DNA of 64,000 bases from positions 3,410,001 to 3,474,000 of the forward strand of contig CM035351.1 of NCBI GenBank assembly GCA_020137815.1, read 5' to 3'. The stretch is from Hormiphora californensis. Its lineage: Eukaryota > Animalia > Ctenophora. The notes beneath the pieces are model-generated. The model was not told the origin of the DNA, did no database searches, and was given only the letters and a program-made list of their open reading frames with translations. This document shows, piece after piece, positions 56,101-58,057 of this stretch (the stretch's first letter is position 1; the number at the start of each line of letters is the position of its first letter). The position numbers and the translations under genes were made by a program.

Positions 56101-58057
56101 CGTAAATCGAAGTTGTGTGAAAAAGTGTTCAGCTTCTAAATCTTCAGTCAGAAATCCTAACCACAAAAAAGACTGGATCTGAATCCTCATGGAATCCAGT
56201 TTTACACACACATGAAACTGCTGTGTACAGATCGTTGCTGTGTGTAGTGTGTTTGTATCACAATTGCCGCAAGTTAGCCTACACTCAATTTGTAAACAGC
56301 TGCACTCAGACACATGTACTGGATACGATCATGCAGGCTGAAACAGTTCTGACCACACTATCTAGTCTAGACTTTGAGGAAGTCGAACCGGTTCTAAATA
56401 CAAAAACTATATACAGACATACAAACTATACTCTCTCTATATCTAGTCACAATTATCTAACAATTTACTCTCCCTCAGGTCAGAGTTGGTGTGCGGCCAC
56501 CCCAGAAGGATTACTGATCTACTCTATTAACTCCGATGGAACGTTTGATCCCATACATCTAGATAGTGACATAACACCTCAGGCGCTACGGACTGCATTG
56601 AGTGAAGGTAAGAAAACACAAATCTCTCGAGACTTTAATATCGTAGGTTTTTTAAACTTTTTCACCTTTTTCTGTCACTTTTTTATGCCTTTTTGTTTGT
56701 TGGGATGATATCTCCTTCCGGCTTCAATCAATCAGGACAAAATGAAAAGCGGTGTTTTTATTAACGAACAGTTTCGATGTTACAACATCTTCCTCAGCCT
56801 CAAATTAATTTGTTTAAAGTAGTGTTGAAAAGTTTGAGTTTCAAACTTTTAAAGTAGTGTTGAAAAGTTTGAGTTTCAAACTTTTCAACACTACTTTAAA
56901 CAAATTAATTTGAGGCTGAGGAAGATGTTGTAACATCGAAACTGTTCGTTAATAAAAACACCGCTTTTCATTTTGTCCTGATTGATTGAAGCCGGAAGGA
57001 GATATCATCCCAACAAACAATTATCATGCGGCTCATAAACAATTATCCGATACTTATCCTGTTTTTTATGCCTTTTCTGAGACTTTTTGCAGCTTTTTTG
57101 CCCAACTTTTTGTAGTTTTTCAAATGGGTTTAGACAACAAAAAAAAGGTTAATCTTTTATTGAATTTATTTAAAACAAAATAAATCAAAAAAGAGGGTTT
57201 GCCTGTTTCGGTAGGGCTGAACTACGTGCCTATTCACCGGTGCTATCCCGCTACTGACCAGTACGGAAGCTTTTGCCTGCTGGCTTTCGCCCCTGGGCCT
57301 GTACGCTTCTCACTATCAACCTGGACCGCTTAGCCTACGCTTAGCAGCCCATATCGGCACCAGCCTTAGCGTGGACACCAGCTCAACATAGCACAGCGCA
57401 GCCCAGAACTCCCCACCTCAAGACATTCCCCACTTTATGCCTCCAAGTAGCTGGATTACAGACTCGCGCCACTGAGCCCGGCGATAGAAGAGAGATTGCG
57501 GCATCTATATACTATCACACTCGGCACCAATTATACCATATTTAGAACACACAAGAGAGACTAATCCCTCCCTTCCTCCCTGCACAGGTAGCCCTCTGAA
57601 AGCACTTCTTATTGCAATCAAGCTAAATAGTCTGGGGTATGTGCAGGAGGCGCTGGAAAGGACCCCAGCGGAAGATATACCCTTTGTTGTCGGATCTCTA
57701 CCCTCTCACTACGTTCCCCCACTTCTCAACTTCCTTGTAGAGCTGGTACGTGTTTTTTGTACGTGACTTTTTAAGCTAATTTTGGGTATTTTTCTCTTAA
57801 CACTTTCTGTCTCTCATCAGGTGACCTCTACGACGCATCTCCAGTTTTACGTGTTGTGGGCCAGTGAATTATTAAATAGGCACGGTGCCGCGGTGAAGAC
57901 TCATACCAGTACCCTGAACGGTATCCTATCAGCAATCTCAGCCCAGTCCAAGTCCCTTTCATCCCTATGTGACCAAAACACATATTTTATGGACGTTATT
58001 TTGACAGTTGGACAATTTTCTAAAGCACCCCTTTCAGAAGAGATGGAAGTTTTTTAA
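53173..58057 (+). CDS. PWP2: Periodic tryptophan protein 2 (Utp1), 3' portion
   Basis: Noisy exons to ~54920, then IEGRDDL..GR, FTSLSYNSDG..ILAG, KFICIY, VQFSPSGQSWCAATPEGLLIYS..FDP..LD.DITP, HLQFY..W...LL..HG, LCDQN.Y; stop 58055-58057. Confidence 0.85.
56694..57061 (+). mobile_element. Penelope-like short insertion: SL-headed unit plus inverted copy and 3' extension
   Basis: ~325-bp palindrome centred on SL; ~41-bp unpaired 3' extension; 15-bp TSD TTTTTTATGCCTTTT (56679-56693, 57062-57076); hammerhead-like CTGAGGA-stem-GAAA then AATAAA. Confidence 0.72.
56871..56914 (+). other. Spliced-leader exon relic (44 nt); antisense copies at 56799-56837 and 56851-56872
   Basis: GAGTTTCAAACTTTTCAACACTACTTTAAACAAATTAATTTGAG followed by GCTGAGG; no GT donor or obvious SL-RNA intron. 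Confidence 0.85.
57187..57482 (-). ncRNA. RN7SL: 7SL / SRP RNA gene
   Basis: GCCGGGCTCAGTGGCGCGAGTCTGTAATCCAGCTACT Alu domain; helix 8 CCCAGGGGC-GAAA-GCCAGCAGG; TCAGTAGCGGGAT...GTGAATAG; ~290 nt; T6 Pol III terminator; TATATA at about -25. Confidence 0.95.

What the first reader, a model, noticed from the sequence alone, without database searches (positions are those of the whole stretch)
56694..57061. SL-headed Penelope-like insertion recording reverse-transcriptase snap-back at the RNA 5' end
Seen: SL + ~150-nt unit, preceded by an inverted copy lacking the last ~41 nt, inside a 15-bp T-rich TSD. The turn-around lies exactly at the SL 5' end (TTTGA-GTT-TCAAA) and occurs twice (56836-56872). 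Knowledge: an inverted pLTR plus a short 3' extension is the Penelope-like signature. Inference: cDNA ran to the cap of a trans-spliced RNA, self-primed on a 2-bp GA/TC hairpin, slipped and repeated. A second retroelement class using SL in the same window suggests a general SL-dependent retrotransposition route.
Basis: partly seen in the sequence, partly recalled or inferred. Interest (0 to 1): 0.85.

Follow-up and report, generated by a model that had tools for sequence, protein, structure and literature searches.

The report
Leader-capped Penelope retrotransposon hairpin insertion
This 368-base hairpin holds two head-to-head copies of the front end of what is likely a Penelope-type jumping gene, both carrying the leader that comb jellies splice onto messenger RNA, which suggests that such inverted ends are copied from spliced, sense RNA.

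Summary
56694-57061 has 144-nt perfect inverted arms, a one-sided 42-nt tail and a 15-bp TSD. The long arm starts with the complete published 44-nt ctenophore spliced leader (SL).
New here:
- A second family copy at 63508-63706 has the same two ends, a 12-bp TSD, another turn point and no SL.
- A hammerhead core lies 1 nt behind the SL.
- Read contigs show a fixed 3' end at many loci, a multicopy SL junction, and unspliced forms with a splice acceptor at the SL junction.
It is most likely a leader-only insertion of a Penelope-like element made from trans-spliced sense RNA. No RT/GIY-YIG parent was found and no empty site was seen.
Two corrections: the 'double turn' is one junction plus one 35-nt tandem duplication, and SL-dependence is not shown. 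Snap-back (0.35) competes with priming from both target ends (0.5), which better explains the fixed inner end.
The layout is known. This scan has noted similar Penelope hairpins and SL-headed LINEs on other DNA. The SL adds a natural mark of strand and RNA 5' end.

The parts
56679..56693 (.). left target-site duplication, 15 bp, T-rich
56694..56837 (-). short (inverted) arm: SL positions 6-44 plus the first 105 nt of the unit, no tail
56813..56882 (.). exact 2 x 35-nt tandem duplication across the head-to-head junction, 3-nt TTT microhomology; this is what makes the 'double turn'
   Evidence: present in X1 contig 56821-56885
56871..56914 (+). complete 44-nt ctenophore-type spliced leader heading the long arm
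56915..57019 (+). pLTR-like unit shared by both arms; unspliced forms in read contigs have a pyrimidine-rich acceptor ending in the AG at 56913-56914
56916..56950 (+). hammerhead catalytic core: CUGANGA, one extra base, 5-bp helix II, GAAA, candidate NUH at 56946 or 56950; ATG at the start of helix II (56925); helix I not found
   Evidence: no Rfam hammerhead match
57020..57061 (+). one-sided 42-nt tail between the inner and the outer fixed end
57062..57076 (.). right target-site duplication
63496..63507 (.). copy 2: target-site duplication, 12 bp
63508..63706 (-). copy 2 of the family (about 95% identical): 41-nt tail 63508-63548, perfect 79-nt arms 63549-63627 and 63628-63706, no spacer, no SL; turns just 3' of the hammerhead core
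63707..63718 (.). copy 2: second target-site duplication
45230..47086 (-). separate element: LINE headed by SL positions 4-44 (47086-47046), ORF1 45581-46903, no fold-back; relatives carry AP endonuclease and RT

Best explanation
This is likely a leader-only insertion of an endonuclease-bearing Penelope-like element (PLE), whose two SL-bearing head-to-head arms were likely both reverse-transcribed from SL-trans-spliced sense RNA, primed from the two ends of one staggered DNA cut. Inferred steps: (1) The parent RNA has a splice acceptor 1 nt before the hammerhead core and receives the capped SL there. (2) The element's protein cuts an AT-rich target with a 15-nt stagger. (3) One 3'-OH end starts cDNA at the outer site (57061), the other at the inner site (about 57019-57020); the stretch between the sites is the tail. 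(4) Both cDNAs run into the SL and are joined at a 1-2 nt overlap, the long arm keeping the whole SL. (5) Fill-in makes the TSD, and one 35-nt slip across the hairpin tip duplicates the junction, during fill-in or later. Shown: the anatomy, the SL, the acceptor forms and the fixed ends. Inferred: PLE identity, the enzyme and the order of events.
For: Layout: inverted pLTR + one-sided 30-40 nt tail + variable AT-rich TSD is the PLE pattern (PMC8557442, PMC3846280). Fixed ends: both window copies share both ends, with TSDs of 15 and 12 bp and different turn points. The inner end is the same within 1-2 nt although the priming target ends are T-rich in copy 1 and A-rich in copy 2, so the element sets it. 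Read contigs of all 4 runs leave the unit at 57061-57063 into unlike flanks, and X1 depth falls 9616 to 274 to 46 there. Hammerhead: the core occurs only in the two arms in 64 kb, and in 0 of 5000 shuffles. It has the extra base and the G10.1-C11.1 pair of PLE minimal hammerheads. In D. virilis Penelope the intron ends at helix I (PMC4209133), matching the acceptor here. In vitro precedent: an anole PLE cuts and extends both strands, starts RT at two adjacent internal sites that bound the tail, is modelled as a dimer, and has its ATG at the start of stem II (PMC11167929). Trans-splicing: acceptor forms before 56913 in X1 (2 contigs), X2 (3) and X6 (1).
Against: No parent ORF was found (about 165 of 196 window frames scanned), so PLE identity rests on anatomy. 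Several facts fit snap-back as well or better: the tail-bearing arm keeps the full SL, the loop is a minimal 3 nt, and the arms are 100% identical within each copy. Two full-length cDNA ends should anneal best through the SL's own near-palindrome at positions 2-12 (seen as the hairpin), which is not the junction observed. Helix I of the hammerhead is missing. The in vitro study does not show both strands extended on one molecule, nor inverted products. The acceptor form was not among the X5 rows shown, and no empty site was seen.
Confidence: 0.5

Rival explanations
1. Same element and same trans-spliced template, but one cDNA: RT starts at 57061, runs to the cap, folds back on a 1-2 bp GA/TC hairpin, copies its own cDNA, and is resolved 42 nt short of the primer.
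For: The full SL is on the tail-bearing arm and the short arm stops at SL position 6, round a 3-nt loop. The arms are identical within both copies. With a terminal C the stronger 4-bp hairpin has an unpaired 3' end, which leaves GA/TC as the nearest extendable pair (inference). Self-priming has been proposed for PLE palindromes (PMC3846280 Discussion), and endonuclease resolution for the tail (PMC8557442).
Against: It needs an extra step to stop at the same inner site in 2 of 2 copies with unlike target ends, whereas that site matches a second RT start site shown in vitro. The SL gene array L012 has no 5' G, so the 2-bp pair needs a cap-templated base. Some other head-to-head SL junctions in the reads carry 4-18 nt of filler and are not clean hairpins (their family is unknown). 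The second turn is no independent evidence.
Confidence: 0.35
2. The SL was captured once and is now a fixed DNA part of a non-autonomous master copy, so the SL junction says nothing about each round of copying.
For: Most copies that reach 56913 seem to carry the SL (depth ratio 0.95-1.01 in 3 runs), and the subfamily is nearly uniform (identical 66-105 nt contigs). No RNA contig of X22 was laid on the unit beyond about 56928.
Against: Unspliced acceptor forms of the same sequence exist in two samples. The copy 1 junction falls on the first base of the SL, which a longer transcript of a DNA-encoded SL would not predict.
Confidence: 0.08
3. A LINE enzyme retroposed a trans-spliced RNA (processed pseudogene with a 5' inversion), or a fold-back DNA transposon captured an SL.
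For: SL-headed LINEs with AP endonuclease and RT exist in this lineage. The target is T-rich.
Against: There is no poly(A) tail, and the arms are the same sequence twice, not two different segments as in L1 inversions (recalled). 0 of 4 SL-headed LINE-type copies with at least 38 nt of upstream DNA fold back (window LINE, L002, L004, L010). TSD lengths differ (15 and 12) and the tail lies outside the inverted repeat, unlike terminal inverted repeats.
Confidence: 0.05
4. The palindrome, or its doubled centre, is an assembly or amplification artefact.
For: Palindromes are hard to assemble. X1 may be the assembly's own data, no listed contig spans the whole insert, and the right flank is uncovered in X5 and X6.
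Against: An exact 15-bp TSD; a second copy with its own TSD; the centre and both junctions in X1 contigs; the left junction in a second study.
Confidence: 0.02

Closest known systems
Inverted-pLTR + tail + TSD insertions of EN+ Penelope-like elements (Pen2a_Av and Pen2/Pen3a in PMC3846280; fig. 2 scheme of PMC8557442)
   Same: Head-to-head inverted copy, one-sided tail of about 30-40 nt, variable TSD, AT-rich target, 5' truncation, palindromic junction.
   Different: No ORF body here. Both arms carry a host trans-spliced leader, so the template was sense and spliced; PMC3846280 favoured an antisense (or unspliced sense) template for head-to-head junctions. The tail is slightly longer (41-42 nt).
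PAc, Poseidon of Anolis carolinensis (PMC11167929)
   Same: Hammerhead core with an ATG at the start of stem II, two fixed ends bounding a tail, AC-rich inner site, AT-rich target, uncleaved RNA as template.
   Different: The inner site is 95 nt after the ATG (111-118 in PAc). The frame from this ATG stops after two codons. The 26-nt ATG-to-cut distance fits only one of two candidate NUH sites (+22, +26). No SL in that host.
D. virilis Penelope minimal hammerhead with the intron end at helix I (PMC4209133)
   Same: A splice acceptor abuts the hammerhead core, so spliced and unspliced RNAs differ at helix I.
   Different: Here the acceptor takes the SL in trans, and no helix I forms in the spliced form.
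Naiad elements of ctenophores (Naiad_Bfor, Naiad_Mley; PMC8557442 supplement)
   Same: Same phylum; some Naiads have a hammerhead core without the full fold; inverted copy and tail.
   Different: None of 9 short motifs (10-12 nt, plus the SL end) was found in that supplement (line breaks can hide a match). Naiads prefer (TA)n and their TSDs often cannot be discerned, while these are clear. The clade is undetermined.
SL-tagged retrocopies (DinoSL retrogenes, PMC5585692 and PMC6050394, search listing only; trans-spliced TE transcripts in Hydra, PMC12220107)
   Same: A genomic SL marks DNA copied from a trans-spliced RNA.
   Different: Those concern genes or TE transcripts in general. Here the tag sits in both arms of a PLE-type hairpin and marks its turn point.

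Membership tests
EN+ Penelope-like elements | ORF with telomerase-like RT and GIY-YIG endonuclease in a parent copy | tested here: inconclusive
   No genome held. No tail match in metagenome contigs. The 49-residue read-through found nothing at E<=10 and one repetitive, unrelated protein. No RT or GIY-YIG in about 165 of 196 window frames. All are weak negatives.
EN+ Penelope-like elements | 5'-truncated inverted copy adjacent head to head | tested here: met
   2 of 2 window copies; further head-to-head joints in read contigs
EN+ Penelope-like elements | 30-40 bp tail on one side only | tested here: met
   42 and 41 nt, same sequence and same ends; fixed 3' end in 4 of 4 runs
EN+ Penelope-like elements | variable-length TSD in AT-rich DNA, no poly(A) tail | tested here: met
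   15 and 12 bp; empty sites not seen
EN+ Penelope-like elements | direct pLTRs in partial tandems flanking the ORF | not testable with these tools
   needs the genome; none held
PLE minimal hammerhead | core CUGANGA, extra base, G10.1-C11.1, helix II, GAAA, NUH | tested here: met
   56916-56950; 0 of 5000 shuffles; features from PMC4209133
PLE minimal hammerhead | helix I of 2-5 bp | tested here: not met
   0-1 bp at the two near NUH sites in the SL-spliced form; by eye none with the acceptor forms; no Rfam hammerhead match. Filed as core only.
SL-trans-spliced retrocopy | exact SL exon with no donor GT behind it, joined where the parent has an acceptor AG | tested here: met
   44 of 44 nt followed by GC; acceptor forms in X1, X2, X6; the SL gene L012 has GTAAG instead
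SL-trans-spliced retrocopy | SL-capped transcript of the parent seen in RNA | tested here: inconclusive
   One probable RNA run, contigs only, no cover of the unit beyond about 56928
Naiad clade | N-terminal GIY-YIG, CxC motif, (TA)n targets | not testable with these tools
   no ORF; targets are not (TA)n; motifs not found in the published consensus file
LINE processed pseudogene | 3' poly(A) and a single pass of the RNA | tested here: not met
TIR DNA transposon / MITE | terminal inverted repeats at both ends, fixed TSD length | tested here: not met
   tail outside the repeat; TSD 15 versus 12

The most novel reading that the evidence does not exclude
In ctenophores, SL trans-splicing takes the place of the Penelope 5'-UTR intron at the acceptor beside the hammerhead. 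It caps the RNA, removes the ribozyme's helix I side, and gives every leader RNA one hard 5' end. Genomic hairpins then form a natural library that shows, copy by copy, that inverted PLE ends are built from two sense, spliced templates by a two-ended priming enzyme, with turn points at the cap or near the ribozyme cut site (copy 2).
Probability: 0.25. Interest if true: 0.7.

Novelty: new variant of a known kind. Interest (0 to 1): 0.45.

Why it matters
How Penelope-like elements make inverted ends and tails is open: PMC3846280 argued for self-priming on an antisense template, and PMC11167929 leaves the later steps unvalidated. An SL can be added only to a sense pre-mRNA and marks its exact 5' end. 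SL in both arms therefore argues for a sense, spliced template for this copy. It also makes the family (roughly 10-20 arm equivalents with the SL junction, by rough depth) a ready test of snap-back against two-ended priming with one genome and no bench work. It does not show a new SL-dependent route of retrotransposition.

Tried and rejected
Whole genome: none held, so no genome-wide tabulation.
Parent search: the tail pattern gave 0 stretches in metagenome contigs. The SL pattern gave 0 in viral and 0 in prokaryote genome contigs. In metagenome contigs it gave 17 loci, none with the unit, a hammerhead core or an antisense SL. The protein read-through gave nothing and one repetitive false hit.
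Pfam on window frames: about 165 of 196 frames of 70 aa or more were scanned, 31 were not; no RT or GIY-YIG.
Rfam: the miRNA matches are below gathering scores and reflect the palindrome; no hammerhead family.
Empty site: no joint from 56693 to 57077 among those listed. Other-haplotype contigs end at 56662 (X5) and 56623 (X6), before the site. Absence proves nothing here.
RNA: X22 shows no cover of the unit beyond about 56928; contigs only, one run.
Coding potential: variants fall at third (3) and second (2) codon positions of one frame. This is too few to call an ORF.
The +26 match to PAc was downgraded once a second NUH at +22 was seen.
Papers not held: Derelle 2010 and the 2017 Terminon paper. 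PMC9940879 passages were not relevant.

Full report
1. Observation. The insert spans 56694-57061 (368 bp). Its left arm (56694-56837) is the exact reverse complement of 56876-57019, and 42 nt (57020-57061) are left unpaired. An identical 15-mer flanks it at 56679-56693 and 57062-57076 and occurs nowhere else in the window; 84 of 200,000 random point pairs gave such a repeat. 56871-56914 equals the 44-nt leader printed for a ctenophore in PMC8527503, so the window is most likely ctenophore DNA. In run X22 (probable RNA), 7 of 8 listed pieces cover only this stretch. The insert lies 85 nt into an intron of a plus-strand gene whose later exons match Utp12, about 110 nt from the 3' end of a nested SRP RNA gene.

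2. The centre. The GA-GTT-TC turn is seen twice because 56813-56847 and 56848-56882 are one exact 35-nt duplication with 3-nt microhomology. Removing one unit leaves 144-nt arms round a 3-nt loop. By my parsing, one polymerase slip after the junction existed is one event, while a repeated RT turn needs about three, so the second turn is not independent evidence. A 65-nt X1 contig matches 56821-56885 exactly. X1 contigs hold both flank junctions, and X5 (another sample and study) holds the left one. These reach 26-29 nt into the insert, below the tool's 31-letter rule, and X1 may be the source of the assembly. No empty site was seen.

3. It is a family. A second copy at 63508-63706 (minus strand, about 95% identical) has a 12-bp TSD, the same tail end, the same inner end within 1-2 nt, perfect 79-nt arms with no spacer, and no SL. 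It turns at about unit position 56949, next to the candidate ribozyme cut sites. On the long arm alone, contigs of all 4 runs (2 samples) leave the unit at 57061-57063 into unlike, mostly AT-rich flanks (agreement 0.52-0.74). X1 depth falls from 9616 to 274 to 46 there and declines towards the 5' end (24 loose-end rows shown, 119 hidden). Summed contig depth is not a copy number. As a rough guide, the SL-junction bin and the unit contig are both about 19-21 times the flank in X1 and X2 and about 10 times in X5 (ratio 0.95-1.01), so the SL junction is not unique to this copy. One search lists 11 joints, 6 of them head-to-head SL-to-SL with other turn points and 4-18 nt of filler where given (maps them). 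Some are the same junction seen twice, and neither their family nor their arm orientation can be told.

4. Trans-splicing. Contigs that enter the unit at 56913 from other sequence end in a pyrimidine-rich tract, then GC or GT, then the AG of 56913-56914: 2 contigs in X1, 3 in X2, 1 in X6, none among the X5 rows shown. This is a splice acceptor exactly at the SL junction, so a parent without SL exists in DNA and the SL copies likely derive from its trans-spliced RNA. The SL RNA gene looks different: L012 has two SL exons 778 nt apart, each followed by GTAAG and preceded by C, not G (species unknown). The first G of the published leader may therefore be cap- or adapter-derived (inference), and the overlap at the junction is 1 or 2 nt.

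5. Hammerhead core. One base behind the SL lies CUGAGGA, one extra base, a 5-bp helix II closed by G-C, and GAAA (56916-56941). My motif scan found it only in the two arms of the insert and in 0 of 5000 shuffles. These are features of PLE minimal hammerheads, and in D. virilis Penelope the intron ends at helix I (PMC4209133). An ATG sits at the start of helix II as in the anole element PAc, but it is followed by a stop after two codons. Helix I is not found and Rfam gives no hammerhead match, so this is a core only, a class also noted for some Naiads.

6. The other SL element. The SL at 47086-47046 (positions 4-44) heads a LINE ORF1. Of 17 metagenome loci with the SL, 4 carry AP endonuclease and RT (L004, L005, L008, L017), 1 the endonuclease only (L010), 1 is 91% identical to the window LINE (L002), 4 match cellular gene families, 1 is the SL gene array, and 6 are unassigned. 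None has an antisense SL. Of the LINE-type copies, only L002, L004, L010 and the window copy have 38 nt or more upstream, and 0 of these 4 fold back. SL-headed retrotransposon copies are thus common in this lineage, but fold-back is seen only in the tailed family. At least 56% of Iso-Seq reads in one ctenophore carry the SL and about 30% of Hydra TE reads do, so a passive tag explains this. Dependence on the SL is not shown.

7. Mechanism. Both models start with a staggered cut and RT on SL-capped sense RNA. In two-ended priming, each 3'-OH end starts a cDNA, one at the outer and one at the inner site, and the two are joined in the SL. It explains why the short arm ends at the same site in 2 of 2 copies whose priming ends are T-rich and A-rich. 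It also matches PAc, which extends both strands and starts at two sites that bound the tail, though that paper does not report inverted products. I took this reading up after seeing earlier notes of this scan and tested it only against these two copies and the read contigs. In snap-back, one cDNA turns at the cap. It explains the full SL on the tail arm, the 3-nt loop and the identical arms, but needs a separate fixed stop. The best fold of the cDNA end is a 4-bp hairpin in another register with the last C unpaired (no better than shuffles), so neither model yields the observed junction as its most stable product. I give 0.5 to two-ended priming, 0.35 to snap-back, 0.08 to a once-captured SL, 0.05 to LINE or DNA-transposon origin, and 0.02 to artefact.

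8. What is missing. No parent ORF was found. No genome is held, the tail has no metagenome match, two protein searches with a 49-residue read-through were negative or spurious, and about 165 of 196 window frames have no RT or GIY-YIG. Short motifs of the unit are absent from the Naiad paper's supplement. Membership in the PLEs is therefore by anatomy; I put it at about 0.9.

9. Literature seen. PMC8557442: passages, supplement searches and one part. PMC3846280: passages and Discussion. PMC11167929: parts 1-2 of 4 and passages. PMC4209133: parts 1-2 of 4. PMC8527503, PMC12220107, PMC9940879: passages. bioRxiv 10.64898/2026.07.22.740005: part 1 of 5. Dinoflagellate retrogene papers: search listing only. 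Searches pairing Penelope with spliced leader, trans-splicing or twin priming listed no paper whose title or abstract opening reports an SL-headed PLE insertion. The library lacks most subscription papers, Derelle 2010 and the 2017 Terminon paper were not held, and bdelloid rotifers have both PLEs and an SL (recalled), so prior mention is possible.

10. Verdict. [quoted passage not shown] The scan has noted comparable Penelope hairpins, one from a cis-spliced message, and SL-headed LINEs in other genomes (unchecked notes), and nothing on this DNA. Interest 0.45.

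Noticed in passing
window 63508-63706 (-): Second copy of the family without SL; its zero-spacer turn lies within about 3 nt of the candidate hammerhead cut sites, so its template may have been a ribozyme-cut or simply truncated RNA.
   Followed up: partly
window 57187-57482 (-): Full-length SRP RNA gene (240 bits) nested antisense in the same intron of a Utp12-domain gene (PWP2-like by recall), about 110 nt from the insertion.
   Followed up: partly
window 47086-45230 (-); L002, L004, L005, L008, L010, L017: Several LINE families in this lineage begin with the SL (starting at positions 2-5); in the window copy ORF1 overlaps the likely start of ORF2, and identity to L002 drops from 91-95% to 83% past about 45450.
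   Followed up: partly
L012 693-735 and 1471-1513: Tandem SL RNA gene array, 778-nt period, SL exon followed by GTAAG; the base before the exon is C, not the G of the published leader.
   Followed up: partly
window 39448-41526: MULE-type DNA transposon: 193-bp inverted ends at 95% and a MULE transposase frame at 39964-40749.
   Followed up: no
window 54912-55212 and 60944-61243; 53166-54122 and 61382-62396: Inverted duplicated segments (98% over 304 nt, 75% over about 1 kb) between a plus-strand and a minus-strand WD40-type gene region; real duplication or assembly effect not tested.
   Followed up: no
window 2084-2951, 6742-7318, 14377-14773, 16304-16509, 23568-24501, 37601-38669, 51376-52411: Many other fold-back or inverted-repeat elements; none carries the hammerhead core motif, and for 6 of them (plus 7812-7885 in place of the last two) no convincing long TSD was found.
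   Followed up: partly
read contigs on window 56873 (X5 and X6) and L010: Several unlike upstream sequences end in a shared short motif that forms a small palindrome with the SL start; it may be a target preference or a turn of another SL-headed family.
   Followed up: no
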